NCBI GenBank assembly: GCA_000934665.2
Contig: KZ538794.1
Location: 1-47,106, forward strand
Reading direction: 5' to 3'
Length of the DNA stretch: 47,106 nucleotides
Origin: Catajapyx aquilonaris
Lineage: Eukaryota
Below, one piece after another: positions 3,159 through 34,102 of the stretch. Below the pieces are notes generated by a model. The model was not told the DNA's origin, did no database searches, and saw only the letters and a list, made by a program, of their open reading frames with translations. The position numbers and the translations under genes are program-made. The stretch's first letter is position 1, and each line of letters begins with the position of its first letter.

Positions 3159-6100
3159 TCAGCGCTTGTTGGAGACGATGTTCTTGCATTTGGGTATGTG
3201 TCTCTCTGCAGCCTGCTGGTTGAATTTGCGCTTACAGTGTGGGCACTGAATGTAGTCGGAGTAGTCGGCAGCTGGGGGAGGGGGAAGATCACTTTCCTTT
3301 CCCCCTGCAGCCACATGGGCCTGTGCCTGCTTGGCGTAGCGGATGGTATTTACGAAGTCCTCGTGCTTTTTGCGCCAGTTGTTTGGAGGCTGTAAAACAT
3401 AGGGGTGTGATTAGTTTTTGGTGGTCAGCAGGATGTCTTAGGAGCTATCCATAAATTATATAACGCTTGTATACAAGTACAGTGTGTCATTAGGGGCAGG
3501 GTCTTAATTGCTAGGTATGATTTGGTAGTTAATAACATTTTTGCGTTTTGAGTTTAGTTTAGCCTTTTTCAACATTACATGCAAGAGACAGTCTCAGTCA
3601 CTTGGGCCAATTGTCTCAGACATTAATAATTAGCTTCATTTTCATTGATGATGCTTCCTGTCAAGGAATTCAGTGTGACACAAGCAAATGATAAAAGGGT
3701 ATTGTGATAATGCCGTTATCATGCTCTGTGTTTCTTTTATTTTTTAGGACATAAATTACAGTCGGCATTTTATTGGTATTATTGGGAACATTCATCACAA
3801 TGCCAAATCCAGTGAATATGTGAAGAGGCCAGCAGGCCACAGTGAAAGTGCGCCTGATAGTTGCATTGATATGACTGCTTCAATGCCAATGTTGCTTTCT
3901 TCACATGCAAGGGAAAGCCAGTATTGAAAATTTAATAGAATGGATTGGCCTCTTTGACTTGTTGTAATTGGCATTCCATTTCATTTGACATTTTTTTTGT
4001 GATTTGTGAAATTGGTGCTTTACAGATAGATGCATAGAATTTGAAGATTGGGAAGAATTGTAGGGTGGGGCAAAATTACATTTTACTTTGTTATATAATT
4101 TATGGATATTGATTTTCAACCATGCATATAGGGATGCAGAACCATGCCTGATGTTGGGTAACATGAAGAGAATGTGCAGAACACGAATCGAGCCATGAGA
4201 TTTTCAAGTTGTGGTACCTGTCAGTTGATCCGATGTGGAACAATGACGTATGTTACATTAAATTAGTTCCATAAATATACTCTGCAATTACCTCATATTT
4301 CATAGGCAATAGGCTGAAAATAAAATGTGGCATGTTTCAATGTCAGGTAAAACATGTTTTGCATATATTTAAAAAATGAGGTATTATTTCTGTGCCACTG
4401 GTCATTTTCATTCAGTACCAAATTAGGTTTGTGGAAATTTTAAAAAATTCCAATATCTGATACTATTGCATCTAATTGGTTTGTATTGGGTGCCCCATGA
4501 TGTGATGCACACACACAGTAGTCAAAGAGATTTACCCAACACATGAGTCGCCAGCTGATAAACTGGCGGCAAACATGCTGTGGAGTTGCTGTCTCAACGC
4601 ATGGCTTTCAAATATCGTCAAGAACTGTGATTTGGCAAAAGATTATTTGTAAAATACCTTAGTTGGCAACATTCTGGTGCCCTATGTCATCTCATTTGCT
4701 TTATTTGGAAACTAGTTGGCCATTTCCCTTCCTGGCCCATTTCTCTCAAAAGGAAGAGATGGTACTTTCAACTTAAACCTGCATTAGAATATTATGGAAC
4801 TTGTAAATGCTGCCAGGTGGTTTTTCCTGTCATAAAATAACTTGTCCCAAATTTCAGAGTATCTGAAAAATATTTCAGCTTTCCTGTATGAACCTTGCTG
4901 TAGTTATAAACACCTTGAGTTCTGCACATTTGAGCCAAATTCATGCATGATCCGTAATGAAATTGAATACAGTAGTAAAGATCTCAAATGACATTACCAA
5001 AATAATCTGATTGTTTTGAAAATTACTATTCATATTTATGTACAGTAGCTGCTGAGAGAGAAAAGCCAATGTAAATAATCCTTGATAAAGCGGATAGAAA
5101 TAACAAGCCAAAAACACATCACAACTACCACTCCCAGCAATGATTTCATGAACCAATTAGACATCTCAGACATTGCCTAATAAAAATATCCCACATATGC
5201 AATATTCATCGTTGGCATGCTAAACATGCCAGAATTTTCACTGTACCATATCTTTCCCGTTGCTTTGTAATCCGGCTTGTTGCCGGCTTACCTCAGATTT
5301 TTTCTGAAATTGATTGGTTCAGTGCATATAGAGCAATGTGATGCATGAAAAGTGACACTCACCGGTGGTGGAGGTGCCCCTGGCTTCAATTGACCCGCCT
5401 TGCCTGGAGCAGCCGCTCCCTTTTTGGGCGCTGCTTTCACAAACGCAGCTGCTTCTGTGCCCATGACCCTCATCTTGGTCGAGTCAAACACTTTGGTCTT
5501 CTTAGCTTTGGTCTTTTGACATATGGTTTGATGAGTCGGAAGCCGATCTTCTGCAAAGGTGCGGTTGCAGAACTTGCATGCAGCCAGCTTCTCATTAACA
5601 GCTGCCTGTGCTGCTGCGACAACTCCTGGTACTTTGGGCTGACCACTTTGTGTCGATCCACGAGCTGCTCCTTTTGGGGGAGCTGGCGGTTTGGTCTGAA
5701 ATATCATGTTTATGTTACATGATGGGATCATTGGTCTCTGAAAGGGCATGGGTGACAGATAATGACATATGATGGTCATTAAGACCACCTGCACATTTCT
5801 GGACATATTAATTGATAGGTCATACCGTCATTCCCACGTGGCACCTCCTGAACCCACGTCAAATTTGGCGCTCCAGTTGCCCTTATTTTATGGCTCACTA
5901 TAATTTAGTCCATCACGAGCCTTTTTTTTCCAGCTTTTCGAATTGATTTAGCGCGGTTGCTAACAGTGACGTCAACAACTGGGCGCGTTTGGTAATTGGA
6001 AGTAGGAGGAAGGCCGTGCGATGACGTCATGGGCATGTAGGAATGTCAGAGCGCACCCTGGCTCGGCATAGGTAGCTCAATAGGGAGGGTGGTTTCATAG

Positions 6101-9100
6101 CAAGTCAGGATGGCCGAGCGGTCCAAGGCGCTGCGTTCAGGTCGCAGTCCGGTTCTCCGGGCGTGGGTTCGAATCCCACTTCTGACACACTTTTTTTTTT
6201 TCACCGCTTATTAACTGAAGAGAATTTTTGATAAATTAAATTACCTTGGAAGGCGATTTGGGGGCTGGATGATCCGCTGGTTTCCCATTGGGTATGGGCG
6301 TGTTCCTGGACTGAAATGTACAAATTTTATGAAACACCTACAATTTGAACACAAGGACAATTTTGATTTCTGTAACGCTTATGTAAAAAAAAAAAAGGAG
6401 GGGCACGCATAATTTCACCTACGATCTACCACACACGTTGCTATTATTTGTCTGGCTCAGCTGAGATGGCTCATGAATATTACGCAAGTCCTTGGATTGA
6501 GCATCAAAGGCGTGTCTAGAGATGTCTCGAGAAAGATTAATCGAATCATCTTGTTGACGTCTCGTAAATACCGCATTGGGTGGAGAACCATATTGCTCAT
6601 CTAGGAGTACGTAGGTGCATTTGCCCAACCGAAGATGCCAATGCGTAGAATAAATTATTACGAAGGCAAGTATACGATTTATAGTCCTATATCGTGCAGG
6701 CGGTGACACAGGAAGTGACCTTCAGACAATTAGTACTAATCGTTCTGCTTTTCAAATTTATTACCGTTTCTCCACCTAAACTATAGGGCGTACCATTTAG
6801 ATGCGCTAAATGCACTGCTACTTAGCCTGTTTGGGTCACTCTTCGTGACCTTTCCAAGCACTATTCACCACACTTTCTTCTGAAAAACCCGTCTATCTCA
6901 CCGGTCCACATCCCATGCGTCCATTCACAAACTGAAAGAACTGCAAAGTGCAACAACCCTAGGTTGTTCATCTATGCATAGTATATACCATATCACCATG
7001 GGAATAGATTTTGAGGTTGGAAAAACATGTCGAGTCGTAGACCTATATACTCTTCGACCTCTCAAGGTTCCGGATCCGTCAATAAAATCCACCAAAAGGG
7101 ACGCCCACCTACATGTCATGACAACCCCTTTATGCCAACTTTTTTTTGCACATCAACCCGTTGAGTGATTGATTACCAATAATGTCTGGCACCGATGAAT
7201 TCTATGTGGAACCTATTCCGTTTTCTTTCACTTGCATTTTTCGGAGTCGTCAAATGAACCGCGTGGCACGAACCGGATTGGTATGTCAGATTAGAAGTGC
7301 CAATATGCGCAGAAAAAGACAAGGCGTTGGATTATTAAGCAATTCGTATAACTGACATGTCCTATATCTTCCGGTTGATTCCAATTGGATTAATTGTTCA
7401 TAGCAAATGAGGCGGATTGATAGGTTCAATTACCTTTGAGTGTATGGTCACTTGTGCATAAGTTATGAGATGAGCTGTATTGTGCTGCTGGTTCCTTAAC
7501 CCGTGTGAATAATGCAGGGTTAGAGCTTCGTGCAACTATTCTTTTGCTTACTTTACTGCTTTTCGGGTTTGTGGGTGACCTCATGCCTTGTTTTGAATAA
7601 TAACTAAAGACGTCCTGAGGATAGTGCGGTGCGCACATATCATAAATATGAAGGGCAGCGAAGTGTTTGCCCACGTGATGCTCGGATCTATATTTTTGGG
7701 CTTGAAACTGTGGATTTCGTATCAAAATATACTTACATCGATTTTACACAACTTATATAATGTTGCCCATACTACGTCTTATTCGAAAATTGGGCAATCG
7801 TTACTTTGGAATTGCAGACTAGGCATACAATCGTTCAGGATTGAAGGCTTATCTCAACACGCCTATATATGCCTATAGTGAAGAGTTTTATTTACATCCA
7901 CCTATGCACACGTTGAAATAGGCTCATCACAAAGATAGTAAGATAGACACAATTTATGGCCTCTCCCTATAAAGCAGTAGCAATATATTTCTTCTCATTT
8001 TTTTCTCTCGGGTTGTAAATAATATTGGTACCAGTTTTACTAAATAAGGTATGGGTGGAACACACTGATTACTTACTCCTGTCTGCTCTGAAAGTCAGAA
8101 AGTCCGTATAAAAATAGCCAGGTGACCTTTCACTACAGAACTCACCTAGAGTTTATTGTGTTAGTTAGATGACCATATACCTCCCGTGACCTAACCCTCA
8201 CCGTCTCTAAGCCCATGGTCTAAGCTAGCGGTGGAGGGTCTAATGCTCGGATATGAGCGGCTGTTACGATAAGGTTCAGTGCAGAATAATGTTTGTCCAG
8301 CTGTGAATTTGGCGGAAAATGAGTAAATGACATGGTATTAGTAGCCTGCTATCGGATAGCTCAGGGTTCTTAACCCCTGTGCAAATACTGTATATAGGCC
8401 CCACGGGAACGTTGTTGAATATCCACAGTCGTAGTTAATAATTTAAATACGACCTTAACAGATAATTTTTGAGCATTCCTTGTGCTTACTATTGCAGCAA
8501 TCCTATAAACTGTTCTTACCATTGGAAACTTTTTCTCTAGACAGCTGTAGGCTACTTAAAACCGTGTTAAAGTCTGACTTGTCGCAGATCGATATCACCA
8601 TTGGCGTTTTAAGGGCATCTAACCAAACTGATCTCCCCAAATTGCCAGTTGCTAACGTAAAGATAACGCACATATTTTAATCGATATGAAATTGCCGCAT
8701 GTCGCATGCTACTGTCACCGCGTCAATGTGTAGTTACATTACGAGCTTCATGCAACGAATATTCCTGGTGCCATCAAATAATGTGCCATTACTGTAACGC
8801 CCTACACGGAAAATATTCTCAGCTCGTCCTTTCAACGCCAGTCGCTCTGTTTGCTCGTCACAAAGAACCACTTTCCAAGTTAGTCCTCGCCCACATGCGA
8901 CTGTAAATATTGAACCGCATGCAGACCACAATTCATCAACCGTTGATATAATACCCTTTGACATTCCGAAGTATATCTGACCTTATCCGGCAATCCCCTC
9001 TGTATCTTGACATCCTCCTGTGGCTGTCCCTTGAGCTTGGTGGGCATCGGAGTGCTTGGTGTCCTCCTTCCGTGTGGGGCACTTCTGACCATCCCCCCAC

Positions 9101-12030
9101 CGGAAGTCCTCCTCCATTGCCCCGCATCCCCCATCTCCTGCTGCACCTCCTCTTCCTCTTCGTGGTAGACTCCGTATGAGTCTGAGGGATCGTCCAGCAG
9201 CGGGTTGTACCCATCGTCCTCATAGTATGAGTCATCAGCTCCATTGTGGGCGATCCTGTTATTGGTCTGCTGCTGAGGCATCTTCCTGCTGAGGATCACG
9301 TTGGGCTTGGGAACCGTGGGTTTGCCCATGGGGACGCCCACTGACGCGTTTCGTGAGAAGGTCGAGGGCGCGGGTCCTATCGACATGTTCAGGTCATCCA
9401 TGTCCATTGTTAGGTGGCTACGGGACCGACGCATGTTGGACCGCTGGGCACCGCCGGTACTGCGTTCCAGGCTGACCCCACGCTGTTTGCTACCCTATAT
9501 CGGGAAAAAGCATTCATGCATTACAGTGACTTTTACGTAACGGCCATGTTGTGCCAATCAGCTAATTATACGTGAGTCATCAATCAATTACCTGCGAGGT
9601 ACGGTGTCCGGTCGGGTCACTCTTGGAGCTCATAGTCCGCTGGATAGGGTCCAACGGATAGCTTTTGTCCCATCCCACGGGGCTGGATTTGGGAGTACCG
9701 CCAGTTGCTCGGTGTGCTCTCATCTCCTCAAACATTTGCCGTACCTGTCACGCGAGAAGTCATAACTTATACACTAAATTTAAGTCGGAAATCGAAGGCT
9801 CCAGAGACTCCTGGTACAATTTGGAGCCATCGATTTCACACGGCCTTCAAGTGCAAAGCAGATTGGTTCAAGTCGCTTCTTTTTTTTGGAGTGGGTTGAC
9901 ACACTGTTTGTACATTACTCATCCAACGTTTCATAGCAGGGGGTAATTTATACCTGACGCTATTCATTCGAAATGGCGCCAGAGATTACACGAGATATTG
10001 ATCCTATTTAATGTCTGAATGGCGCAGGAAATGGCTATATCGGTTGGACAATAGGGTTGTCCGTTGCAGATAATACCTTTCCGCCTCCTAAGGAGGAATT
10101 GAGGGAAGAAGGAGCACTGCTTCTTTGCGACATCCTTTGTAGAGTTCTTTGCTGTTGATCCTCCAGCATGGCCAACATCTTCTGCTCCTTCTCCTGCAGC
10201 TGACGCTGCTGAAATTGTGCCTACAAGAGACAAATTGTATCAATGTAGGTGGAAAGTACCGCTGTAAGCACATGTCAAAATAATTTTATCATATCATTCA
10301 TATATGTCGACATCCTAACGGTCCATGGTGACATGCCCTGGTCATGTAACTGTTGCTGTCATAATGAATCTTTTTGCCCAGATATCAAAAAAGGCATTTG
10401 CTGACTCATAGAGTGGAGACACTACAAAGTGGGACACTGTTCACTTCCTCAAGGTCTTGCATGTATCTCCTTATACACGCTGGATCCTGATTTGCATCCG
10501 AGGAGGAGCCGCGATGTAAAAGGCAGATTTACAACCGCCTTTTCAAGTTTGCCATACTTGGAAAGATCACACTTTCACAGAGCAAGTTTCATTTCTTTTT
10601 TGGCTACGAGTTACACATGTATTTAGCATCAGCAGTGTAGAACCGGTACTTTTTGCAAGTGCATTACTGCACTCTTTGGTCCAACACTAATTATGCAATT
10701 ACAGGTGGCCTCGCTCGAGAAGGTTCTAATTACCGGCGTTTTATAGTTATGTACAGAGCAGCCCTTTACACTTTTTGATCCTAATTAGAGGATCGAATAA
10801 GTGGTTCTAGTTTAAAGTATAATGAAAGGGTTGAGTTGCTCGGCACACTTCTAACATCCATGGTTTGCACGCGCGAATTTTTAGATCAGAATTGGCCAAA
10901 TCAATGCCCGCATATCCTTGTCATGTACAAACTCGACTGGAACAACTCGTCTGGTTTGTTAGCATTTAGTAAGACGTGTGTTGATGTCTCGTTGAGTAAG
11001 GAGGATCCAATTTGTCTCGTTTGAACGGAGAGCTGTTGGCGGTGAACAACCTGAGCTGTCCTTTTTGTTGGTCTGACGATTCGTCTCGCCTTCACGGTAC
11101 CGTGACTCTCAGGGTGCGATTCTGAGTAAGGCATATTATCGTGGAAGGGTTTTAGAGAACGTCTGATTTTTAAAAAGGGGTCGGTGCTAAGTTTCTCATT
11201 CATTGTTACTACCAACATATCTTAAGTGGTCTCTTGAGGCCCGAAATTCCCTGACATGCATTTCGTTTCTATAGAGGCAATTGACCGCCTGTTTTATTCT
11301 AAGAATTCTTTTTGTGACAACACGCGCTAGTGGGCGTCGTAGTTAAGTAACAGGAGTGCGTATGAATTAATTTTAATGTAGGCTACCGGTATATGGGTTT
11401 TCCAAAATATTATCATGTAAGTGCCTGGCCGTGGCAATTGCAGATTAGATGCGAATGAAGCTGCCGTGACCCACACTTGGTTGACCACATATGTGTGCCC
11501 TACATAAAAATGTGCACGCTGCTCAAAAGTAATTTACAACTACCAGTACTTAATTGCAAGCACTATGATAGAAAATACTATGGGTCAAGCATTGGAAGGT
11601 TCAATCTCGGGAGTGTTCGATACTTTTGCGGTTTGCTGAGCCTAAATCTCTACGTGATTGTCATAGCTCACGATAGAATCAATACTTTTAGGGCCTATTA
11701 CTGGAAAAGACTACCTTATTTCAAGGCTACTATTGGTGATCTGTACGAGGCGGCCTCTTTATTATTCATATAGGTCAGGTTACATTATTACCCTGAATAC
11801 GCAAAGAAATATTTGGGAGACAAAACAACTATGTAGTTGTCTATCTGTGTCGTAGATAATGAATAAACTATGAAGAAATGAGATCTAACGAGTCATGTTC
11901 CAATTTGTTGGAAGTGCGTACGACACACGCAATAAGCATTTTGAAATTATATACAGAAAATTTGCTGATGTTTAGGCCGTTGTGTGTGCTAAAATGTGTG
12001 CAATTTTTATCCGGAACTCACCGTCATCAT
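3159..12030 (-). CDS. ZC2HC1C: Zinc finger C2HC domain-containing protein 1C-like (FAM164C-type), ~482 aa
   Basis: Exons, all GT-AG and all phase 0: 12022-12030 (MMT, tentative start); 10077-10220 (AQFQQRQLQEKEQKMLAMLEDQQQR...GGGK); 9592-9744 (VRQMFEEMR...GWDKSYPLDP); 8982-9494; 6245-6310; 5363-5695 (C2HC finger CKFCNRTFAEDRLPTHQTIC, then KKTKVFDSTKMRVMGTE); 3159-3389 (NNWRKKHEDFVNTIRYAK...DLPPPP...DYIQCPHCKRKFNQQAAERHIPKC, TGA). Two C-terminal C2HC fingers after a long N-terminus is the 1C-type layout. Confidence 0.85.
6104..6187 (+). tRNA. tRNA-Leu-CAG: tRNA-Leu (anticodon CAG)
   Basis: GTCAGGATGGCCGAGCGGTCCAAGGCGCTGCGTTCAGGTCGCAGTCCGGTTCTCCGGGCGTGGGTTCGAATCCCACTTCTGACA. Acceptor stem GTCAGGA/TTCTGAC, anticodon stem CTGCG/CGCAG with CAG at 6138-6140, long variable arm, TTCGAAT T-loop. 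Confidence 0.97.
6191..6201 (+). terminator. Pol III oligo-T terminator of the tRNA-Leu
   Basis: A T11 run starts 4 nt after the tRNA 3' end. Confidence 0.85.
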
Positions 12031-15000
12031 CTCTGCGTGCAATAATGGGTTCAATTTGGTTGAACTCCGTGCATGTTTGCGCCAGTCTTATGGATTCAGT
12101 CCGTCAGGTAATGTTGCCCGCATAACAATTGTCCCACATGTCACCTGGACAAAGGTCAAGGTCAGCCAGGGGAATCGCAGCTCCAGCAATCACTAGACTG
12201 ATCCATTGGGAAGAATGATGTCCATGTATCTGTGATGTATATGCCGGAGAGGGAAGTGAAGCAGTCTACGTGTCCATAGGCACTTCAGGTCTGGTAATCG
12301 TTGAGCAGAAGGACTTTCACAAGTATACTGCATACCTGTCGGTCGATATACCCCCCATTGGCCGTACACCCAACCTTCTACCCACCCACCCGCCCACGCA
12401 GGTAGACACGCGTGTTGCGCTGTAGTATTGTAATGTCAAGCCGGTAGTAGTGGTCACAACGGGTGACTAATTGTTCCGGGTAACAATTACCAATGTATAT
12501 GTCAAATGTATGAATGGCTTTGAAGCGTTTAATGTATTAAAATGAGCACGTCAAGTATGTATTAGATATCGAGAAAGTTTATGTAACAGGCCTTGAATTA
12601 TATATTATTTTGTATTATGTATTTTTAATTTGATCGAACTTTGTCTCAGCCACGATGTGGATTCACATTTATAGCGTAATTGCATTTAATATAGCAATTG
12701 GTGGCAAAAACACGAACAATTTTGCCATAATATCGAAATTGGTGACCCAGAATTCCGCCGGAGAGTGGGCAGTAATTTTACAGGAAACTGTGCAATCTGG
12801 ATATTGGAAATCCCTACAAGTTGGTCATTTTCCCGGATATCGTGCCATTCTTCTATCAAACTTTAAGCAGACCTTGTCAAAAGGTCACAAGTACAGCAAT
12901 ACACCACATCCCTCACAAACAGCCGGTAAGTGGGCCTATTGGAAAGTACACGATCTTGATCGCCCACTAAATTTGTTCCCATTTTTGCATATGACCTTTA
13001 TACAGTATACATCAGTGTTACAAATGAGCAGTATATTCCTGGAATCGTGACAACTTAATAAATACTGCACCTTAAGTACTGATCAGCCCGCACAATTAGG
13101 ATAAAAGGGTCGAAAGCCAAGCCATCAAGAAAGTGGAAACGTGCCTGTGACCCTGGTGTTTATTAATAATGAACCTTTGCCCAACAGCTTATCACCACAT
13201 CTCTGCCATATCGGCGCTTCCAATATGTAACAGCTCAGGATATTGAATAGGATATGAGATCTTCAGGATAATTCTAGGGTTCCAAACCTGGGGTTATACT
13301 GCTTAATTATACTAGTAGCCTTTGTCATGTATGGTTTGCTATTAATAAAAGCACTCGACTAAATTGCAGGACCTTCTGATGGGACATATTGGACAGCGTA
13401 TATGATAAGACGACACGTGCTGCATTAAGTACTGTGTTTCGATCTGCCTGAGCAGAGATTTCAACAGCACTATAAAAACTGCCTATCGGTTTTAACTGCT
13501 TAGTTTATAGTCTTACACTGCTAGTGCAATTTATGTGCATGCGATTGCCTGGAGCTATACATGCATTTGCAGGCGATGAACCCACGAATGGCCAAGGCCT
13601 TTGGGAATTCCTCTGGTGATTCAACCAACAACACGATTTGATCCTTGCATCCGGAAAAAAACATCATTTAACACAAAAAAAGCTCATCTTGAAGAATATA
13701 TTCTTTCCGGTTCTACACTTCACTGCTATCAACATAGCAATTATTTTACGGTATCCGGAGATGGTATCGGATGAGTGCTGACTGATCCAATTTCATGATA
13801 AATTATATTATAATGACCACCATGTCAACACTGACCTGCATGAGGGCCAATCGAGAGCCACCTTTTGGGCGACCTGATCCCAATCCATCATGGCGACTCA
13901 TGTAGTCCTGCACTAGGGCCATCACTTCCTGAAATTAAAAATGTTCCCATGTAGTTGGGTAAATACATCGGAGGAAGATGCTATAGGCTGGTGTTGCTAT
14001 TGAAAGTTAGAGTGGATCTGACAGTAATTAATGACGACGGATATCCGACATTGCATGATTATATCCTGCCAGTAGATCTATTCTTACATAGTGTTTAGGC
14101 TTTAGCGGCACTTCCTGAGTAAGGAAAAATCACGATGCACGGTTAGCCGACCACGAAGGAAATTCATTGTTAGGACAAAAGGATAATGCCAATTAAGGCT
14201 TCGAGAGCATTTACACAAGTGGGTAGCAGGTCACTGTGACTTCATTACTTTTTGTTGATTTTTTTCTCCCTCCTTCCAGTACTGTCGTGACATGCCAAAA
14301 TAAAAGGACATGTATACACTTTCGTTCTTGGAAAAAGTACACAAAAAAAGAGTTGGAATCATGCAGGCGTTAATTTGAAATAAATAAGGGCCTTCCTGTG
14401 CTCTTGTTAGCGGAACACCTGGGGTTCCACTCTTCTGGGCAGCCTTTTCATGATATACTTTGGCCAACAAAAATTTCGCTTTTGACATATCTACAAAAAA
14501 AATTGTTAGGAACCGACCTCGATTTTGAAAATCGATGTTATTAGAAACCAGGCCGTTCATCCTTAGAGAAAATTCGTCACGTTACATTTCCCCCTGAACC
14601 TTGAATCGCAATTTTTGACAACTGGTTATCCTGTGGTCGATTAACAGTATACTGGCCATAAACTTGACGATGATGTAGGCTTTGACCTCACCTGATGCTG
14701 TACGTAGGAGGACTAGTTGATGCACCGTTGCACTCACACTCTGCACCTCACATTCTGATCGAGACACCTCCTTCTGCGAAACATCCAGCCAGCAAAGTGT
14801 CTGCTTTTCCAGCAGTGGGCTGTATGTGCAACTTGGCCTGACTCAACCCTCGTTATCAACCGCACTGGAGCGAATAGATAGAACCTGGTGCAGTGGCAAA
14901 GACACGGACTATGCTGTTAATCCTACTCCATGACCAACTTTCAAGGCTGCATTCAGTCATTTCGCTGACACTGACCCACTAACTAACTTCATTTTTACCT

Positions 15001-17053: not shown

Positions 17054-17387
17054 GTCAAGCAGGAAGAATGTCAGAATTCGCGCTAATGTGATGTTATGCA
17101 TTCCTTCTCAAGTCATATAATATAGTCATTCAGTACGGTTACATCATAAAAGCCAAATGTTCCACTTAAATGTCAATTTGTTACCAAATTTTCACTGTAA
17201 ACTGCTTACTTTAAAAGCATGAAACCTGTGTAACTTACAGCAGATTCACACGGGACCCTAAAAATTTGACATTGTTGACCAGTTTCTGCTTTATTCAACA
17301 TGGCATTTACTGTGAATGCATGTCCTATCCATATGCCCCTTCTCATTAAAAATTCCACAATGGACAGATTTAACTGTAGTTGGAATA

Positions 17388-17689
17388 CAGTAGAACCCCA
17401 ATTATCCTACTCCTGGATTTATCCGACCCTCCTTGCAGCAATAAATTGTTTTCTCATGAAATACTCATCTACACGTTTGTTTTGCGTGAGTTAAATTGTA
17501 AATGCAGTACAGTAGAATGGTAAAAGATAAATACTTCGCTTCTTTTTAGAAAACCATAATATTGTAAGTAGTTATTTCATATTTTTGTTGTGTTACATTC
17601 AAGTTTTTTTACTCCTAGGATTATCCAACCTTTTATGTTATCCAACCATGCCCCCATCCCATGGGTGATGGATAATTAGGGTTCTACTG
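17388..17689. mobile_element. Tc1/mariner (pogo/Tigger-like) MITE with TA TSD
   Basis: TA|CAGTAGAACCCCAATTATCC ... GGATAATTAGGGTTCTACTG|TA. A related copy lies in reverse orientation at 35853-36130. Confidence 0.85.
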
Positions 17690-17843
17690 TAGTTACTTTT
17701 GTGATTATCAAAAGTTATATCTACTAGTATGAGGCTGAATTTAGCCATCTGCCCAAGCTCTAAATTGCAATGGCTTTTTCATTGGAAATGGATCATCACA
17801 CATCAATGATAGAACATACTTTTTGCATCTGGATCCCCTATCC

Positions 17844-18029
17844 CAGCGGTTCCCATCCTCGGGGTCTTATGGCCACAGAAATTGTTTAAAAAAAAATTAT
17901 TTCAAAATGTTTATAGGAATTCTCATCGCGGTGGTTTTTTTCAACACCTACTAACACTCGGGGAGGGGGTCGCAGGTTACTTGACTATCATAAAAGGGGT
18001 CTCGACCCAAAAAATGTTGGGAACCACTG
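17844..18029. mobile_element. hAT (Charlie/Buster-like) MITE, 186 bp
   Basis: TIRs CAGCGGTTCCCA / TGGGAACCACTG. Perfect 8-bp TSD CCCTATCC at 17836-17843 and 18030-18037, with a central TA. Confidence 0.9.
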
Positions 18030-18806
18030 CCCTATCCCCTTGCAGTATGGGTCCGAACAACCTATTATTACCACTAAAAGTAACGCCTTAAAAGCAAGCA
18101 CCTTAGGGGCAAAAAATAGCTAAAAATAGCTAACATTGCCATTGCAACACCCTGTATTTGATAAAGGAGTGATGGACAAGTTCTGGTTTATTTTTAATGG
18201 AACATAATGCACACAAATGGTACATGGCACATTCAATGTGACCTGTGTGTAAGTCAGGCATCATGCTACAATGACCAAAAAGTGTTTTTCTCCACCGCGG
18301 TCTGTACGGCAACAGGCAACGACACTTTTCTCCAAATATATTGCTGAACAGAGGTCACAAGTAACAGTGTGCTGATTTGACAAAAAGAAATAAATACTGT
18401 ACCCTTCACTGCACACACGACAATTCAAGTGCTGACAGTATTGTTTGAAAATAAGTAACAGAAGGCACAAATGAAGTTATCATGGCATTGGACTCTGAGT
18501 GTTTTGCAAACTCCATTTGTGCTCTTGAAGGCAGTTACAACAAAAAAAAAAAGAAAAGAAAAGGGAGGGAGGGGGGAGGGGGTATAGAAGAGTATTGATG
18601 TGCTCTAACATGACCAGTAACATGGTTCATCCTCTGAATATATATGATCTCCCCATTAATGACAACAGATAACATCTCTAGGGAAGGAAAGATACTGGGT
18701 TGGAGCACAGAGTGACATCTGCATAATTATATGGATATGGGGGAATATATCAAAGAGGAAAAAAAAGGGACGCCCTCAACTATGTACACATGCAACGACT
18801 TTGGCT

Positions 18807-19829
18807 TCACTTCCGAAGCCTCTTGCAGGGGGGTGCACGGTTATATTCCAGTAGCTCAACCAGCAGCTCATGTGGCAGGGACTTGGCCTCTTTCCATGCT
18901 GACGTGTGCATGATTTTGTCCAGCTTCATGGACGCCCTCTGTAAGCACACCTTCTTCAGCTGTGTTGCATTATGGTTAGCCGCAAGTGTCAGCATGGAGA
19001 GGACATTGTTCAGCTTGATCCCAGTGCACAGGTGCTGCTCACACATACTCTTCAGGCGTGGCAGGTCATACTTATCTGCTGCCACAAGCAGATCCTCTGC
19101 TACCTGGGCCATCTCAGGTGGCTCCTGGTCAGTATAAATGAACCACACCATCGCCTCCAGTACATCAGGGCTAACATCATTAATATTGATGACGCCAGAC
19201 ATCTTTTCACGCATGTCATGGCGGAACATGGATGCAAAAACGGGGCTCCTTGCAGTCAGTATTAACTTATGGACCTGTATTGTGCGCCCCTCACTCAAAA
19301 GAGCCAAGTCGGCATCTTCTTTACTCTTTAGCAGCTCCTGAAAGTTGGCCACCAGGTTAGGCGGCTCCACGTTGATGATCGACTCAGGCATGGTCTTGAC
19401 TCCCAGATCAACTCTCCCTTGACACACCAGCACCATAGTGTCATTTGGCAGCAGATCATCCTTCCGATCATACAGAACTTTGATGGGAATGAAGTCTCGC
19501 CACCCCCAGTTGTCTGACTCCTTGGTGAAAGTGCGCCCACGTTCAGTCAGCACATAGTCGGTCTTGGTAGAACTCTGGATGGCCATGCTCCATGCCATCT
19601 TCACTTTAAAGTCGTCCGGTGTGGGGCTGTTGTATTTCAGGTAGATGGACAATTCTGGTCCCTTTGTGTAGAGGATCATGTTGACCTTGCCGGGGACCTC
19701 ATTGCAGAGGCTGAAGAGGGACGAGCGGATGGTGTTTCGCTCTTCATCATCTTGCAGGACGCTGAATTTTTCTATCGTCCACTGGAACTGGAAAGGTGCC
19801 TCATTGCGGCTGGTCGTACAGCGTTGCAT
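18807..19829 (-). CDS. Speckle-type POZ protein-like MATH-BTB-BACK Cullin3 adaptor, 340 aa, single coding exon
   Basis: MATH domain (FQWTIEKFS...LSIYL...DNWGWRDFI...DLLPNDTMVLVC), BTB domain (DLALLSEGRTIQVHKLILTARSPVFASMF...FIYTD...LLVAADKYDLPRLKSMCE), BACK helices and a SPOP-type C-terminal NLS (PPCKRLRK). The ATG at 19829 lies 5 nt inside a splice acceptor (CCGTTCTAG at 19835-36). It is too divergent to call the SPOP/roadkill orthologue. Confidence 0.92.
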   Translation of the reverse strand: MQRCTTSRNEAPFQFQWTIEKFSVLQDDEERNTIRSSLFSLCNEVPGKVNMILYTKGPELSIYLKYNSPTPDDFKVKMAWSMAIQSSTKTDYVLTERGRTFTKESDNWGWRDFIPIKVLYDRKDDLLPNDTMVLVCQGRVDLGVKTMPESIINVEPPNLVANFQELLKSKEDADLALLSEGRTIQVHKLILTARSPVFASMFRHDMREKMSGVININDVSPDVLEAMVWFIYTDQEPPEMAQVAEDLLVAADKYDLPRLKSMCEQHLCTGIKLNNVLSMLTLAANHNATQLKKVCLQRASMKLDKIMHTSAWKEAKSLPHELLVELLEYNRAPPCKRLRK

Positions 19830-20238
19830 GATGCCTAGAACGGAGTGATGTGCAATTAGTGAATTGAACCAAAACAACTGGAGTCCCTACATCGCCAGAA
19901 ATGCAAATAAAATGTCACTACAAGGCATATACTTTTCAATTTCATGTCATTTATGAGCCTTGTTTTTGGTCTGTAATTCCATTAGATGGAACTAGGGTCT
20001 TTTAGGCGATAAAATATTTTCCTTAATTTTTATTCCTACTTGATTCAAATTTGGAAATAAGGGCAGGGATGAAAGGTAGCAACTCTGGCTGTATGGTAAA
20101 CAGGAATTCCAAATTGTTACGCATGGATCAAGTGAACAGAATAAACCACTTAAAACCCTGGGCAAGATGGTTTACACCAGATTAAAACTCAGGACATGGA
20201 AAATGATGGTATGGGACATTGCTGCTTCATTTGTTTAA

Positions 20239-20494
20239 CCCTCAGAGACCAGCAAGTAAATGGCAGGTACTACCGAAAAAGCCGACTGCAAGCCTTTTTG
20301 TGATTTTTTTTAAAGCTTTTTAGTCAAGTCCTTGTGACCTCAAAAACACTGTTACAATAAATGCCTACATTTTTCATCCGGAAGCACATGGTGTTGATCT
20401 AAAAGAGGAACAGTCACACAACTGACTCATTAGTGTGGTGGCTTTCTTGCACCTCTACTCTTAACCGACATATCAGTTTGCCAGTCTCTGAGGG
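20239..20494. mobile_element. piggyBac-like MITE, 256 bp
   Basis: TTAA|CCCTCAGAGACCAGCAA ... TTGCCAGTCTCTGAGGG|TTAA. It lies in the inferred 5'-UTR intron of the MATH-BTB gene. Confidence 0.88.
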
Positions 20495-20705
20495 TTAACC
20501 AAAATGGGGTGTGCAATTAAGTCAAAATTTGCCTTTATTTGTGGCAGAAAATATATTGGGGCTGAGGCATGTTCGGCAACCACATGTGTAAGCGACCAGC
20601 CTGGGTCACTTCAACAAACCCGAACCATGCTGTGCTCTATTATCGAGCACCATCTGAGCAGGCTTGACGTACTGTGCCTTGTTGTGAGGTCTGGTTGCAA
20701 CATAC

Positions 20706-20816
20706 TTGCGACTCTGATCCTGGCGAAACAGAGCGAGTGGCGTCTGTTGTGGGCAAATGAAGGGCCCTCTTGCGACCAGACTTCCTCCTTTTTCTCCTGG
20801 TACTGTGCGTGAGGTC
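20706..20816 (-). other. Probable non-coding 5'-UTR exon of the MATH-BTB gene
   Basis: Acceptor CTCTCTAACCTCCAG| at 20817 and donor CAA|GTATGT at 20705. A further upstream donor (ATCA|GTGAGC) is at 20901. No in-frame ATG was found. Confidence 0.45.
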
Positions 20817-20899
20817 CTGGAGGTTAGAGAGTGTACAATCTGCCTGCTTCCAGACCCGACAAGTGAGGCGTAGAGAGGCTACAACTAGTGATGGAGCTC

Positions 20900-21189
20900 A
20901 CTGATGCACCCTGGCGCTGCGCCTCGTCAATCCAGCCAGGAGCCAGCTAGACTACAGCGAGCTATAGCACTGGAGCTAGCTACTCCCTCGCCGCCTCTAG
21001 TCCTCTACCCCTTTCCCCCTCTCCCCGGCTAGCAGCTCCTGCAGGAAGAAGGACAGGGGACGCGTGTCCTTGGTGTCGGGGCGATACAGCAGTCACAGCA
21101 CGTAGCTATTTCACTCGACGTGACGGGGTAACGGCTCTTTACATTCCTGCTGGCAACCCTGCTCTGTCAAAACAAGTGAAGGTGCCATA
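20900..21189. promoter_or_regulatory. Candidate CpG-rich bidirectional promoter between the MATH-BTB gene (-) and MLH3 (+)
   Basis: GC/CpG-rich stretch between the inferred minus-strand UTR exons and the MLH3 ATG at 21190. Contains TGGCAACCCTG at 21151-21161. TSS positions cannot be determined from sequence. Confidence 0.5.
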
Positions 21190-24100
21190 ATGGCGCTCAG
21201 AAATGGAACGGGAGGAGAGGACCTTCGGTGTGGGATCGGGATGGGAGAAGGGAAGGTGGCCAGGGACAGCCCCGTCATCAGGCCACTGCCAGACGACGTG
21301 CGACACAAGATCCGATCGGGACAGGCCATCGACACACCGGCCCAATGCGTGCTGGAACTGGTACAGAGCACAGATTTTAGAATATAAGCTACCACCTATG
21401 TAGAGTAAGCAGTGTAAGCTAGAGCAGACGGGTGGGGGGTGTTTAAATTATTGTACCCCGTTCTCGGGCCCTGGACCCTTTTTAGGGGGGTGGAAATACC
21501 ACCATCTTTTTGGAACCATATAAGATATTGTTTAATTGGTCCAAGGGTAAGTAGGAGGGGATGTGCAAAGTGCGGATACAGTTGACCTTACTGGCGTGCG
21601 GGAGGCGGGAGGGTAGTAGTCATTGGGGCAACGGGCTGCGTCGCAAAGGCAAGGATAAAGGATAGGCGTGTATCCGCTGAAGATAGGTCTGTACCCACAA
21701 GGAAGGAAGGTTAGGCTTGGTTTGGTTAGGTTGGTACAGCATACCCCTTCCAAAATCCAAAAAAATCAATCTTTGCATCCTTGCCTTTGCGACACAGCCA
21801 AGCTGCCCCCAGCCACCACTCACCCTGCTGCCTCCCGCATGCCAGTAGGGGTTACTATTTCCCAAAGTGCAAGTGCAATGTCGCATATTGGTCATTTTGT
21901 GAACTCCCCCGGGTGGATTAGTCTAGCGGAAATTTCCACCCGAGATGAAGGGGGGAACCCCTGGTTGGGTTCGAACCTGGGACCTTAACATCCATGGGCA
22001 CATACTTTACCGCAGCACCACTCTGCCTCCCGAAAGCTGATGGTTATTCTCATGGCAAACCTTTTGCAGGTGCTGAACTCACTTGATGCTGGAGCCTCGT
22101 GCATTGCCATTCGGATCGACCTCACCTACATGAAGATTCAGGTGGTGGACAATGGAAGTGGCATGAGTGAGTCCAACCTCAATTTGGTAGCAACTAGGTA
22201 TGCTACCAGCAAGTGCAAGGATACTGCTGATCTGTGTTCCAATCTGCGCTGGTTTGGGTTCCGGGGTGAGGCTCTTGCCAGCATTCGAGAACTCTCGGGG
22301 ATTCTGGAGATAACGACACGAACTCGTGACCGTAATCCATCTGGTGTTACGTACACTCGCATCTTCACACAGGGACGTGCCCGACCAGCTTCCAAGTCAC
22401 ATAATATACGCCCATCACATGGAACGACTATTACAGTACATGACTTTCTGGCTGCCTTACCTGTACGCAGAGCAAGAGTGAGTCGAACAATTGACTTGGA
22501 GCAGATAAGGCAGTGTGTGCTAGCAACTGCTTTGGTTCACCCAAAGTGTTCATTCAGCGTGCGTGATGACACAACAGGAGCAGAATTGGTGAATCCAGGC
22601 AGAAGTAAGACAATTCCAGATACGTTTTCAAGACTCTTTGGCAGGCACAAAGGTCACAAGCTAGTTCCAGTGTCTGCTTTGGAAGGTGTATTCTGTCTTG
22701 AGGGGTTTGTGTCCAAGGAAGGTGCTGCCAACAAGAGCTTGCAGTTTGTGTATGTCAACCGCCGATTAGTGCTGAAAACACGGATTCACAAGGCCATCAC
22801 TGCAATACTGTCCAAAATGACCTCCCCAGACCAAAGTGCTGTGTTTGCTATCAACATAACATGCCCTCATTGTGAATATGATATATGCTTGGAACCAAAA
22901 AAGACTCTCGTTGAGTTCAGTGACTGGGATGGTGTGATTGCTTGCATTCATAAAGCATTGTCTGAGTTTTTGTGCCGCATTGGGGTGGTTACTAGCCCAC
23001 AGAGAACTCCTGAAAAACAGAAGGTAGATGAAGAACATGAGGAAGATGCACCAGTGCCTGAGTATGCTGATATAGTTACAGCTGTTGACATGTACAGGGT
23101 GTCCCATGGTCTTCCAGTGCATGCTAGGTGCAAAGTTGATAAAGGTGTGCCAGAGGAAATAGCAGTACAGAATATGGATAAGATGGTAGAGGATACGGAA
23201 AAGAATGTGTCAGCTCTAGAACTGTTCAAAAGAGAAATGAAGGACACTTCTTACGATGTTACCCCAGCTGGCTTTAGGATTGAAGTCACTGCACCACCAC
23301 CTTTGAAGAGAGATGTTCGTCAAGAAAAGAGCATGTGTGAGGGTACTAGTCACATTCGTTCCTTCTTCAGCAAAGCTGTGAAGCAGGCACACAAGAGAGA
23401 AACTGCTAGGAAAGAAGTTGGTGAGCTGCAGAAGAAGAAGGCTAAGGTAGAACTGGAAAAGTTTGCATTTAGGAAGTCAAAACCTGGCCAAATACCACCT
23501 ATACTGAAGGCCTTTGAAAGAAGCAGAAGCCAGTCTCAGCAAATTGAACGAAATGCAGTCCAACAAGATGCACCTACAGAGCATTTTGAATTTAACACAT
23601 CACCTGCACCCGCTGAAGAGTGTTCTACTGTGGAGCCAATGGAGAAAGTGGATGCTGTCAGCCAAGAAGAAATCAAGTTGCAGCCATCACCTGTGCAATT
23701 TTTATCTTCAGCAGATTTTATTCAGCCACATGACAGTCCCATTTCAGGGCATCATGCAGTGCTTCACAGTCCGTCAGCAGCCAAGAGTAATGAAGATAAC
23801 AACACCTGGCTAGGTTGCTCAGTGTCTCATCATCATCAGCCAAAGAATGCTGTTAATAATTTGCCTTGTAATGAAGAAGGAATTATGTTGAACCATCAGA
23901 ATGATTTTGATGGGGTTAAAGAGATGGTTAATTGGGAAACTGTCACATCTGTCTTCAACTGGGAAAATTCAAGTATGCCATCATCAAGGATCTCCATAGT
24001 CGTTGGTTCACCCATTATGTATGGAGATGACGTGGGTGAGGGAGAATCAAGTCAAGATCAAGAGCTTCCTTCATCGCAGCCTTTTGAAATTGAGGATACA

Positions 24101-27100
24101 AGTCATCATGCACATGACCTACCCAAAACGCCTACTGAAAGGAATGAAGATGAAGTTATGGAGAGTCCTCCTTTTATTTTACCTACTGCTGCAAGTGAGG
24201 ATTTCCTACCTAATCAAGTAGAAGCCCAACTGCAAGGAAAGAGTATTAGAGAGGAAGACAGGAGCTGGAAAAATCCATTTGTTTTTGAACCGGATCTCCA
24301 GGGTGAAACTTCTCAGGATTCTCCAGTGGAATTCTTAGCTGGACGCGATTGTTCCTTTGTGGAAAGTAGCAAAGAAGATGCCAGAGCAATATTTTCGGGC
24401 CCATTTCATGAAGATGTGCCACTCACAGACTTAGTTATGGACAGTGAGTCATTGAATGTAAGGATGGACAAAGTTGCATTGGAGCCATCAGTTGTACAAA
24501 TATCCAGCACTTTCTTTGAGGCATGCCATGATGCTAAAATGGAAGGATGCAACCAAAGAGTCAGTAGGTCAAGTTCACCACTTTCTGTGTCAGTTGCACC
24601 ATCCATAATGGAGTCGCCAGCTGAGACACCTACAAGAACCATCTGGAATGCAATAAATGCTCTGTCACCTACAAGTGATGTTGGTGTGGATGCCATGTTG
24701 CCAATTGACTCTTCACAGAACTATATTTCTAACACCAAGAGCAGTGAAATGATGCATCTGACTACAAAAGAATTGCCAGGTTTTGAATTATTGACTTCTA
24801 ATAATCAAAGCAGTAAGGTGTCGTCACCTGAGAAGCCAAGCAAAGCTGCAGGACCTGCTAAGATACACAACAATGAAGTAGCTTCTAATCAGAAACAAGT
24901 ACATGATAATGAAGCAATGTTTCCAGAGGACAAATTGCAACGAAAGGAAGTGGAACCTGGTGACGTCAGTGCAGCCGAGGGAGGATGCAATGAGGACGTT
25001 GAAAGGGAAGTAGGAAGTAGGTGGATTGCTGATGTGGACCAATCAGGAAAGACAGTATACATCCACCTGCCCTCAGGAATGTCCTCATATAATCCTATTC
25101 TGCCAGAGACTCCTCAGACCAAAGGAACGGCTACTCTACTGTCACATAAGAAGCTAGCCTTTTTGCCCAGAGGGACATCACCTTTTATGGAAAAGTTAAA
25201 TGTTAGTATGTCGAAACCTACCCCTGGTGGCAGAAAAAGTGAAAATCTGCCAGTTGAGGAAATGCCAGAGTCACTTCTGAACATGCTTGACATCTCAGAG
25301 GATCTGTCTAGTGTCAAATGGAAGACTGAACCATTTGCTCATGAAGCTGAAAGAGGTAAAAACTTTAATATCTTGCTTAGCTAATGAGTAATTACAATGC
25401 TCAGTTTGAATATAATTGGTGACATTCACAAGTATTCTCTCCCATTAATGTGTTTTTAGTACCTGATCGGATGTCTCTTACCCTGGTTTAAATGACAATC
25501 CTTCCTTTCAGATGTTGCAAGTCATAGCCATGTCCTTGTAGCAGATTACAATCCCGAAGACATGTACCCCATTGAAATGGAAATCCTCAATGCATGCGCC
25601 ACAGGCCTGAAAACAGCATCTAGGAGAGTGAACAATGCTATTTTTCCCTACAAGTTTGACAGCAGCTTGTTTGAGAATCTCCAGGTAAGGATTCCAATAT
25701 CACTCCATGAAGGAAGGGTGTTTTTGAGTAATCTGAGAATGTAATTTGTAACAGATTTTGGCATTTGAGGATGAGGGTTACAATTTAATTGTTTTCAAAT
25801 GTGACTTTTTAATGGTGTTGTTTGACTGGAAGGCCGCTGTCAAGTTAGTTGCAGTGATGAATAATGTGTGAATATTTTAGGTTGTGAGGCAGGTGGATAA
25901 CAAGTTCATCCTGGCATTGTATGCAACCACATCAGGTAAAGATCCAAACCTGATCATGCTGTTTGACCAGCATGCAGTGCACGAAAGAATAAGACTGGAG
26001 CAGCTGATCAAAGGTTTGTTGACAATTTTCCTGTCAGTAGCCATCATATTGTTATCATATCCCTATTTTAGACAATGTGGATCAGAAGAATGATGGACAT
26101 CAGTGCGTGAAATCTCTTCACATGGACCCACCGTTACAACTGAGCTTGTCACCATCTGAAGTGCAGTTGATGCAGTCTTATGCCAATGTGTTTGAAGACC
26201 TGGGAGTGACTTTTCAGGTGAAAGATAGCACATGTGTGGTGATACACAGTGCACCTCGATGCATTGTGGAAAGAGAAGCTAGTGAGGTCAGTAAAATTAT
26301 TATTCCAGGGAGTAAATGAATTCAACTGACAAACTTTAGCAGTAATAGAGGGGACCAAGACAAACATATTTCATATAGGAACCCATGTCCGGAAACGCCA
26401 TCTAGAGGTGAGTCATAGACAAGGAACGAGTCGTTCAGACGCATTTCAGGACGCGAGTTCCTATATGAAGTACGTTTGTCTTGGTCCCCTCTATTACCCC
26501 GAGAAGTTTGTTGGTTGAATTCATATACACCCTATAAGGATCAACAAGAGGTAATTGAAATTAGAACTGTAATATGGTGGAACATGCTTTCAGGCAAGAA
26601 ACCGAAGGCCTTCGATGCTGGAAGACCTAATGTTTCAAATGGTACAGGAAAAGCTACACACACTCATGTCGACCAGAGGAGGTGATCGATCTCTGCCAAA
26701 GACACTCTTTAGTGTGCTTTGCTCACAGGCATGCAAAGGTATGTAATCTTGATGACATTTACTGCACACAAGGCATCCAAGAAACTCATATACAGACAAC
26801 TCTTTTCTGGAATTCCTGCTAACCTAAGGTGATAGATCTCAGTGATTGAAGATGTTTTCACTGCTATCAGGTGCAGTCAAATTTGGCGATGAGCTAACCA
26901 CAAGGGAGTGCTGCAAGTTGCTGGAACAGCTGCAGTTCTGCCAGACACCGTTCCAGTGTGCTCATGGTCGGCCAGTGCTGGTCCCACTGGCCAACACTGC
27001 CCATCTGAAAAACTGGAAAACTGCTCAGGTGAGTTTCTCTACTTGCATTCTTTTCATATTTATGAGTTTGGTTCCTTTCAGGTGGAAAAGCCTAAATTAT

Positions 27101-27162
27101 GGAAGCTCCATGTTAAAAGAAGGCCACCACTTACTGATTCTCCACCACCAGATGTTACGTAA
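21190..27162 (+). CDS. MLH3: DNA mismatch repair protein MLH3 (MutL-gamma endonuclease subunit), ~1453 aa, 8 exons
   Basis: Exons 21190-21360, 22070-25355, 25512-25684, 25881-26013, 26072-26286, 26594-26738, 26871-27028, 27082-27162; all GT-AG with consistent phases, 4362 nt in total. GHKL ATPase motifs: [58 protein letters not shown]-terminal motifs: QVDNKFI, endonuclease [12 protein letters not shown] (25965-26000), [21 protein letters not shown]. The start could be the second Met at 21241. Confidence 0.96.
21860..22031 (-). mobile_element. tRNA-derived SINE with a tRNA-iMet-like head, in MLH3 intron 1
   Basis: Minus strand reads GGGAGGCAGAGTGGTGCTGCGGTAA...GCCCATGG...AGGTCCCAGGTTCGAACCC. 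Body motifs GTGCAATGTCGC and AGTCTAGCGGAAAT are shared with 28530-28716. The 3' boundary is approximate. Confidence 0.75.
26306..26534. mobile_element. Tc1/mariner-type palindromic MITE with ~90-bp TIRs, in MLH3 intron 5
   Basis: CAGGGAGTAAATGAATTCAAC...GTAATAGAGGGGACCAAGACAAAC...TTCATATAGGAAC pairs with GTTCCTATATGAA...GTTTGTCTTGGTCCCCTCTATTAC...GTTGAATTCATATACACCCT. TA is present on the right; the left TSD is degenerate. Confidence 0.85.
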
Positions 27163-34082: not shown

Positions 34083-34102
34083 AGAGAGAGAGAGAGAGAG
34101 AG
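34083..34102. repeat. (AG)10 microsatellite
   Basis: Read directly. Confidence 0.95.

What the first reader, a model, noticed from the sequence alone, without database searches (positions are those of the whole stretch)
3159..27162. ZC2HC1C and MLH3 are divergent neighbours, as at human 14q24.3: candidate ancient microsynteny
Seen: a 1C-type ZC2HC1 gene (-) and MLH3 (+) point away from each other, with ~9 kb between their start codons and one gene between them. Recalled knowledge: in human the order is MLH3(-), ACYP1, ZC2HC1C(+), NEK9, so the same two genes are divergent with one small gene between. Inference: this genome looks invertebrate (53-58 nt introns, very divergent MLH3 linker, MITE and SINE content), so the pair may date from the bilaterian ancestor. 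Shared germline or testis regulation of a meiotic crossover nuclease and a poorly characterised C2HC protein could explain its retention. I am not aware of this pair being described as a conserved block.
Basis: partly seen in the sequence, partly recalled or inferred. Interest (0 to 1): 0.8.

Follow-up and report, generated by a model that had tools for sequence, protein, structure and literature searches.

The report
Ancient MLH3–ZC2HC1C gene neighbourhood
An arthropod keeps the meiotic crossover gene MLH3 next to the cilia-linked gene ZC2HC1C, as birds, mammals, a spider and two bivalves also appear to, so the pairing is probably over 500 million years old, but it is one of hundreds of such old pairs and shared control is not shown.

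Summary
Observation confirmed, with corrections. The window (whole contig C1520, arthropod) holds an intact 508-aa ZC2HC1C (-) and an intact 1,453-aa MLH3 (+), divergent, start codons 7,268 bp apart (not ~9 kb). The gene between is an intronless MATH-BTB from a family with 119 matches in this genome, not ACYP1. The finger gene groups with 1C (100/99); the genome's 1A paralogue is on another contig. Of 9 other invertebrate genera with both genes placed, 3 look tightly linked (Solemya: consecutive locus tags; Trichonephila: one 137-kb contig, one accession between; Argopecten: same chromosome, 11 accessions apart), 3 apart (Photinus, Gryllus, Nematostella), 3 undecided. Turkey and pig list MLH3-ACYP1-ZC2HC1C. 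A protostome-deuterostome age is likely (~0.9), inferred from identifiers; orientation outside this window is untested. Co-regulation is unproven: both genes fall in mouse Nrf1-null rods, but here they share no promoter. It works like a conserved ancestral microsyntenic pair (Irimia 2012, ~600 known). I found it in no catalogue I could read; Irimia's list was unreadable. The scan had not noted this pair before, but noted four other old neighbourhoods in this genome. Interest 0.33.

The parts
13836..13922 (-). ZC2HC1C first coding exon (start ATG at 13922, preceded by a splice acceptor, so a 5' UTR exon lies upstream)
   Evidence: Profile of homologue N-termini and motif scan; exon ends and frame
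10077..10220 (-). ZC2HC1C exon 2, conserved N-terminal Q/E-rich segment
   Evidence: hmmsearch E 3.5e-13
9592..9744 (-). ZC2HC1C exon 3, holds the G.D[RK]..PL.P motif seen in 7 of 7 1C-type and 0 of 2 1A-type references
8982..9494 (-). ZC2HC1C exon 4, low-complexity linker
   Evidence: open frame with GT-AG ends; no RNA support
6245..6310 (-). ZC2HC1C exon 5 (22 aa, Pro-rich)
   Evidence: phase-compatible GT-AG exon; inferred
5363..5695 (-). ZC2HC1C exon 6, first C2HC finger
   Evidence: PF13913 35.8 bits
3159..3389 (-). ZC2HC1C last exon, second C2HC finger and stop
   Evidence: PF13913 33.8 bits; best named hits are arthropod proteins, many named ZC2HC1C
14691..14691 (-). Strongest splice donor upstream of ZC2HC1C: candidate end of its own 5' UTR exon
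   Evidence: only donor scoring at least 6 of 7 between 13930 and 21300; inferred
18807..19829 (-). Gene between: single-coding-exon MATH-BTB-BACK (SPOP-like) gene, 340 aa, acceptor 5 nt before the ATG; member of a large expansion in this genome
   Evidence: Pfam BTB, MATH_2, BACK_BPM_SPOP; 119 matches in the genome, best other copies 36-41% identical over full length; acceptor
20700..21400 (.). GC- and CpG-rich single-copy stretch around the MLH3 start: candidate promoter shared by MLH3 and the MATH-BTB gene
   Evidence: GC 0.52-0.63 per 100 bp; no other full copy of 20450-21200 in the genome; promoter role inferred
21190..27162 (+). MLH3: exons 21190-21360, 22070-25355, 25512-25684, 25881-26013, 26072-26286, 26594-26738, 26871-27028, 27082-27162; 1,453 aa; DQHA(X)2E(X)4E and FQCAHGRP motifs intact

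Best explanation
MLH3 and ZC2HC1C became neighbours in or before the last common ancestor of protostomes and deuterostomes and have been inherited as a pair (about 0.9 for this step). The first state was most likely direct, head-to-head adjacency (inferred: Solemya has no gene between; this window is divergent). Unrelated small genes later landed in the gap separately: ACYP1 in vertebrates, an intronless MATH-BTB copy here, where it now faces MLH3 across a CpG-rich stretch. Today the pair is most likely held by a short interval crowded with promoters, which few breakpoints can hit harmlessly, in slowly rearranging genomes, rather than by a functional tie between the two proteins. Shown: genes, orthology, order and orientation in this window; the interloper's family expansion. 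Read from identifiers: linkage in bivalves and spider. Inferred: ancestral orientation, order of insertions, reason for retention.
For: Solemya velum MLH3 is ScPMuIL_013525 and ZC2HC1C ScPMuIL_013526, both on a 104,732,328-bp sequence. Trichonephila clavata MLH3 GFR25515.1 and ZC2HC1C GFR25517.1 both on a 137,407-bp contig. Argopecten irradians XP_069118086-088 and XP_069118099 both on a 71,477,355-bp sequence. Turkey order EIF2B2, MLH3, ACYP1, ZC2HC1C, NEK9, TMED10 (PMC8470100); a turbot gene model joins acylphosphatase in front of MLH3, so ACYP1 is upstream on the same strand. Orthology. The genes between are unrelated. The link is dispensable: firefly and cricket keep both genes on different sequences. 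Here the starts are 7.3 kb apart with a gene between; CpG o/e is 0.31 in MLH3 exon 2 and 0.77 over ZC2HC1C exons 1-4; no NRF1-like or X-box-like enrichment.
Against: Linkage outside this window rests on locus tags, accession order and equal sequence lengths, not coordinates; RefSeq numbers are only loosely positional (the same two genes are 146 to 1,538 numbers apart in five Schistocerca species), which weakens Argopecten. No invertebrate deuterostome or annelid could be tested. Orientation was seen only here. Against the passive part: Mlh3 and Zc2hc1c are both among the 16 genes down at least 2-fold in mouse rods lacking Nrf1 (PMC9321222), and the last ZC2HC1C intron is CpG-poor too (0.29), so the CpG contrast is not clean.
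Confidence: 0.6

Rival explanations
1. Ancient pair actively kept by co-regulation: a shared or bidirectional promoter or enhancer (NRF1/Erect-wing type) drives a meiotic crossover nuclease and a ciliary/flagellar protein together in germ cells; genes that insert in the gap tap the same element.
For: Both among 16 genes down at least 2-fold in Nrf1-null mouse rods (log2 -1.05 and -1.13), while Acyp1 is not named in that paper's text (it is not among the hits). ZC2HC1C is described as mainly testis-expressed and a ciliary-tip, IFT-associated protein (PMC12029121, passages); MLH3's meiotic role is established knowledge. Head-to-head is the commonest and best-kept orientation of ancient pairs (PMC3514665). 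No gene between in Solemya.
Against: A gene separates them here and in amniotes; 4 NRF1-like matches against 6.05 expected, none in 13.9-21.2 kb; X-box-like 31 against 29.4 expected; apart in firefly and cricket; the Nrf1 data are from retina, one data set, and whether the two are direct targets was not visible; neighbours often co-vary as a result of proximity.
Confidence: 0.3
2. Chance re-adjacency: both genes ride on one ancestral chromosome and met separately in vertebrates, bivalves and arthropods.
For: They probably share an ancestral linkage group: in Nematostella they are 670 positional IDs apart amid many genes whose names I recall from human 14q; same chromosome in Schistocerca and Anabrus. 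The genes between differ.
Against: Per-genome chance 0.002-0.008; two or three hits in 9 genera, chosen by taxon before their identifiers were seen, have a chance of roughly 0.002 or less (hand arithmetic).
Confidence: 0.04
3. The cross-species support is an artefact of reading gene order from identifiers, or of wrong orthology.
For: No coordinates were seen; RefSeq numbering scatters; the tree uses about 140 columns, one mammalian 1C and no ZC2HC1B row; AU rejection of 'window with 1A' is modest (p 0.038).
Against: A shared 137,407-bp contig bounds the spider distance whatever the numbering; the Solemya tags are consecutive; 1C/1A split 100/99 with a separate 1A paralogue in this genome; architecture and motif agree.
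Confidence: 0.06

Closest known systems
Conserved ancestral microsyntenic pairs (CAMPs) of Irimia et al. 2012, PMC3514665 (parts 1-2 of 7 and passages read; supplement unreadable)
   Same: Unrelated genes, at most four genes between, linked in several phyla; head-to-head here, the commonest CAMP orientation (54.8% in human).
   Different: Not a sub-kilobase bidirectional pair such as HSPD1-HSPE1: 7.3 kb and one gene between here. Whether this pair is among the 595 could not be checked; MLH3 is not in the main text.
Amniote EIF2B2-MLH3-ACYP1-ZC2HC1C-NEK9-TMED10 block (human 14q24.3, recalled; turkey PMC8470100 and pig PMC7700692, passages)
   Same: MLH3 and ZC2HC1C with one gene between.
   Different: The gene between is ACYP1, on MLH3's strand (turbot model); here it is a MATH-BTB gene on ZC2HC1C's strand. 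No acylphosphatase, IF-2B or EMP24 match lies on this contig; NEK9 was not searched.
Microsyntenic blocks of Robert et al. 2022, PMC8851819 (supplements searched; file 4 cut at 30,623 rows)
   Same: Same kind of ancient local linkage; a centipede C2HC-finger gene of the ZC2HC1 orthogroup is in block 1674, 'Bilateria novel'.
   Different: No row names MLH3 or ZC2HC1C. I could not read the other members of block 1674, so overlap is not excluded.
Genomic regulatory blocks (trans-dev gene plus bystander)
   Same: Old linkage of unrelated genes.
   Different: Neither gene is a developmental regulator (established knowledge) and the introns are short.

Membership tests
ZC2HC1C (versus ZC2HC1A/B) | Groups with named 1C proteins, apart from named 1A proteins | tested here: met
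   1C/1A split 100/99 in a 30-row tree; inside an arthropod 1C group 96/98; window-with-1A rejected at p-AU 0.038; same split in the 75-row tree. No 1B row was available.
ZC2HC1C (versus ZC2HC1A/B) | Finger pair at the C-terminus behind a long N-terminus with a G.D[RK]..PL.P motif (feature drawn from the references in hand) | tested here: met
   Tail of 8 aa after the last finger, against 136-288 aa in 1A-type rows; motif in the window and 7 of 7 1C references, 0 of 2 1A.
MLH3 | GHKL ATPase and transducer, long linker, MutL_C with DQHA(X)2E(X)4E and a C-terminal CAHGRP motif; best hits MLH3 | tested here: met
   (named hits among the top 120 are MLH3 or generic names, none MLH1 or PMS); one copy in the genome.
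CAMP (Irimia 2012) | Two non-paralogous genes with four or fewer genes between | tested here: met
   One gene between in the window and turkey; none by locus tag in Solemya; at most one accession in Trichonephila.
CAMP (Irimia 2012) | Linked in at least four lineages | tested here: inconclusive
   Vertebrates, a bivalve, a spider and this arthropod make four if each invertebrate counts alone, as in the paper, but three phyla only, and on other species than theirs.
CAMP (Irimia 2012) | Listed in the paper's Table S2 | not testable with these tools
   No supplement readable.
Co-regulated head-to-head CAMP | 5'-5' orientation kept across lineages | tested here: inconclusive
   Divergent in the window; human recalled; strands not available for bivalves and spider.
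Co-regulated head-to-head CAMP | Bidirectional promoter, under 1 kb between starts | tested here: not met
   7,268 bp between start codons and a gene between; transcription starts were not mapped, so a far-upstream ZC2HC1C 5' exon is not excluded.
Co-regulated head-to-head CAMP | Co-expression above matched neighbours | tested here: inconclusive
   One mouse data set shows a joint response to Nrf1 loss; no matched control, no expression data for this species.
Genomic regulatory block | A developmental regulator with enhancers in a bystander's introns | tested here: not met
   MLH3 is a repair/recombination nuclease and ZC2HC1C a ciliary protein; enhancers were not assayed.

The most novel reading that the evidence does not exclude
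An uncatalogued bilaterian regulatory unit: one ancient NRF1/Erect-wing-type divergent promoter region couples the meiotic crossover nuclease MLH3 to a ciliary-tip protein in the germ line, has lasted over 500 million years, and has served as a landing site where unrelated genes (ACYP1 in vertebrates, a MATH-BTB copy here, an unknown product in a spider) independently captured one face of the promoter.
Probability: 0.2. Interest if true: 0.6.

Novelty: new member of a known kind. Interest (0 to 1): 0.33.

Why it matters
It adds a cross-phylum gene pair that I did not find described, dates it to the protostome-deuterostome ancestor (not adjacent in Nematostella), and gives a synteny anchor for orthology of the poorly studied ZC2HC1C and the fast-evolving MLH3. 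The separate insertion of unrelated genes into the same gap makes a small natural experiment on promoter capture. If co-regulation were shown it would tie meiotic crossover to flagellum building at the level of one cis-element. As it stands it is one more of several hundred ancient neighbours.

Tried and rejected
RNA: no RNA holder listed for 18700-27200; no reads were laid, so exon joints and transcription starts are unconfirmed. Metagenome contigs: 0 of 23 ZC2HC1 loci carry MLH3, but most are short or not clearly animal, so uninformative. Motifs (patterns recalled): X-box-like 31 against 29.4 expected; NRF1-like 4 against 6.05. A start near 12.2 kb for ZC2HC1C: rejected, the conserved first exon is at 13922. 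The gene between as an ACYP1 equivalent: rejected. A larger block with EIF2B2 or TMED10: no family match on this contig; contig ends hide what lies beyond. A second gene in the gap: none by Pfam. Catalogues: Irimia 2012 supplement unreadable; Robert 2022, no MLH3/ZC2HC1C in the rows held, two files cut; PMC13508932, 0 in 2 files; PMC6292497, 0 in 4 files; PMC9977687, 0 in 2 files, 1 unreadable. Text searches (listings only): ZC2HC1C+MLH3 gave 8 papers, none on synteny by title or abstract start; microsynteny+MLH3 2, unrelated; MLH3+ACYP1 11 listed; MLH3+bidirectional promoter 7; searches added no description of the pair. PMC6615865 (passages) names Acyp1 as a predicted testis marker, not Zc2hc1c. 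Limulus: MLH3 on a 20,892-bp scaffold, uninformative. 8 of 27 MLH3 proteins looked up bore no name; 11 more were from species for which I had no ZC2HC1C.

Full report
What is in the window. The window is the whole of contig C1520 of a 285.6-Mb assembly. A ZC2HC1-family gene lies on the minus strand in seven phase-0 coding exons from 13922 to 3159, giving 508 aa without a stop; its two fingers pass the Pfam zf-C2HC_2 cut-off. MLH3 lies on the plus strand in eight exons from 21190 to 27162, 1,453 aa, with intact endonuclease and C-terminal motifs, and is single copy. Start codons are 7,268 bp apart. Between them is one gene, a single-coding-exon MATH-BTB-BACK gene at 19829-18807 on the minus strand. 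Exon joints are predicted, not confirmed by RNA. The organism is an arthropod by the tree of the finger gene (96/98); I did not place it further.

Orthology. The last exon finds arthropod proteins first, many named ZC2HC1C, then mouse-lemur ZC2HC1C (59%) ahead of fish ZC2HC1A (52%). A second family member on contig C1016 groups with named 1A proteins. Of 87 rows, 12 lacked the two-finger core and were dropped; the 75-row tree splits 1A from the rest at 100. A 30-row subset gives 100/99 and rejects the window gene inside 1A at p-AU 0.038; its bootstrap had not fully settled. Architecture agrees: fingers at the very end, and a G.D[RK]..PL.P motif in the window and 7 of 7 1C references but 0 of 2 1A. 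No ZC2HC1B row and only one mammalian 1C row were available.

Vertebrate order. A turkey gene list runs EIF2B2, MLH3, ACYP1, ZC2HC1C, NEK9, TMED10 (PMC8470100, one passage); a 479-kb pig block holds the same genes (PMC7700692, one passage). A turbot model fuses acylphosphatase in front of MLH3, which puts ACYP1 upstream on the same strand. The strand of ZC2HC1C in human is recalled, not tested.

Other invertebrates. No eukaryote genome browser was at hand, so I used locus tags, accession order and sequence lengths. From 150 unnamed MLH3 representatives, a tree guided the choice, by likely taxon, of 27 MLH3 and 3 ZC2HC1C proteins for look-up; 19 of the 27 bore names. Both genes could be placed in 9 genera. 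Tight: Solemya velum, tags 013525 and 013526 on one 104.7-Mb sequence; Trichonephila clavata, GFR25515 and GFR25517 on one 137,407-bp contig; Argopecten irradians, 11 accessions apart on one 71.5-Mb sequence (weaker). Apart: Photinus pyralis (PPYR_03779 and PPYR_01269, different sequences), Gryllus bimaculatus (GBIM_12507 and GBIM_04023, different scaffolds), and Nematostella (NV2.20040 and NV2.20710; PMC10946136 supplement; the IDs run in step with the older gene numbers and MLH3's neighbours are other genes). Undecided: Schistocerca (same chromosome, 146-1,538 accessions apart in five species), Anabrus (same chromosome), Limulus (MLH3 on a 20.9-kb scaffold). The chance of at most one gene between, on a shared chromosome of 500-2,000 genes, is 0.008-0.002 per genome, so two or three hits in nine are very unlikely by luck. 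Inheritance from the protostome-deuterostome ancestor, with later loss in some insects, is the simplest reading. One cnidarian cannot tell gain after the split from loss in Nematostella.

The gene between. The MATH-BTB gene has 119 matches in this genome (268 candidates, 118 scored), mostly long unbroken frames, often in clusters. The two acylphosphatase matches are on other contigs, as are all IF-2B and EMP24 matches. So 'one gene between' arose separately: ACYP1 on MLH3's strand in vertebrates, MATH-BTB on ZC2HC1C's strand here, none in Solemya. The MATH-BTB ATG follows a splice acceptor, so its first exon lies upstream, probably in the single-copy GC-rich stretch at the MLH3 start; this makes MLH3 and the interloper the likely head-to-head partners today (inference).

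Why it lasts. For co-regulation: Mlh3 and Zc2hc1c are both among the 16 genes down at least 2-fold in Nrf1-null mouse rods (PMC9321222, passages of Table 1 and results); ZC2HC1C is described as mainly testis-expressed and at the ciliary tip (PMC12029121, passages); ancient pairs favour and keep 5'-5' orientation (PMC3514665). Against: a gene separates them here and in amniotes; firefly and cricket keep both genes apart; CpG o/e is 0.31 in MLH3 exon 2 and 0.48 in the MATH-BTB frame but 0.77 over ZC2HC1C exons 1-4, though 0.29 in its last intron; recalled NRF1 and X-box patterns are at chance level. Four unchecked notes of this scan report other bilaterian-age neighbourhoods in this genome, which fits slow rearrangement. 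I give 0.6 to an ancient pair now kept by a promoter-crowded short interval and slow rearrangement, 0.3 to active co-regulation, 0.1 to chance or artefact.

Known and new. It works like a conserved ancestral microsyntenic pair, of which 595 were described; formal membership is open because that list could not be read. I found no description of the pair in the text searches or in the supplements searched, two of which are cut; a centipede ZC2HC1-family gene in block 1674 of Robert 2022 might be the same neighbourhood. Verdict: real and very probably ancient, a new member of a known kind, mechanism unproven; interest 0.33.

Noticed in passing
G000, 119 matches on many contigs (for example C1465, C1607, C1635, C1329); window 18807-19829: Large expansion of single-exon MATH-BTB (SPOP-like) genes, often in tandem clusters, mostly 30-40% identical to the window's copy.
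   Followed up: partly
G000:C1016:18100-19200 (L002): ZC2HC1A-type paralogue with both fingers in one open frame and a very long branch (2.17), far faster than the 1C gene.
   Followed up: partly
window 6104-6188: tRNA-Leu(CAG) gene on the plus strand inside a ZC2HC1C intron.
   Followed up: no
window 26307-26533: MITE-like element with nested inverted arms fills most of the fifth MLH3 intron; others at 1690-1897, 1962-2538, 31481-31608, 46563-46798, and a pair of perfect 33-nt inverted repeats at 40588 and 41611.
   Followed up: no
window 1-90 and 500-1500: A possible minus-strand exon at the contig's left end (open frame after an AG) and a CpG-poor stretch (o/e 0.13-0.23) suggest another gene running off the contig.
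   Followed up: no
window 27200-47106: About 20 kb downstream of MLH3 with no Pfam match in the long ORFs I tested and mostly high CpG o/e; a 22-nt tandem repeat at 32595-32697.
   Followed up: partly
P0166 (turbot): Annotated MLH3 with an N-terminal acylphosphatase domain: probably a merged model or read-through of ACYP1 into MLH3.
   Followed up: partly
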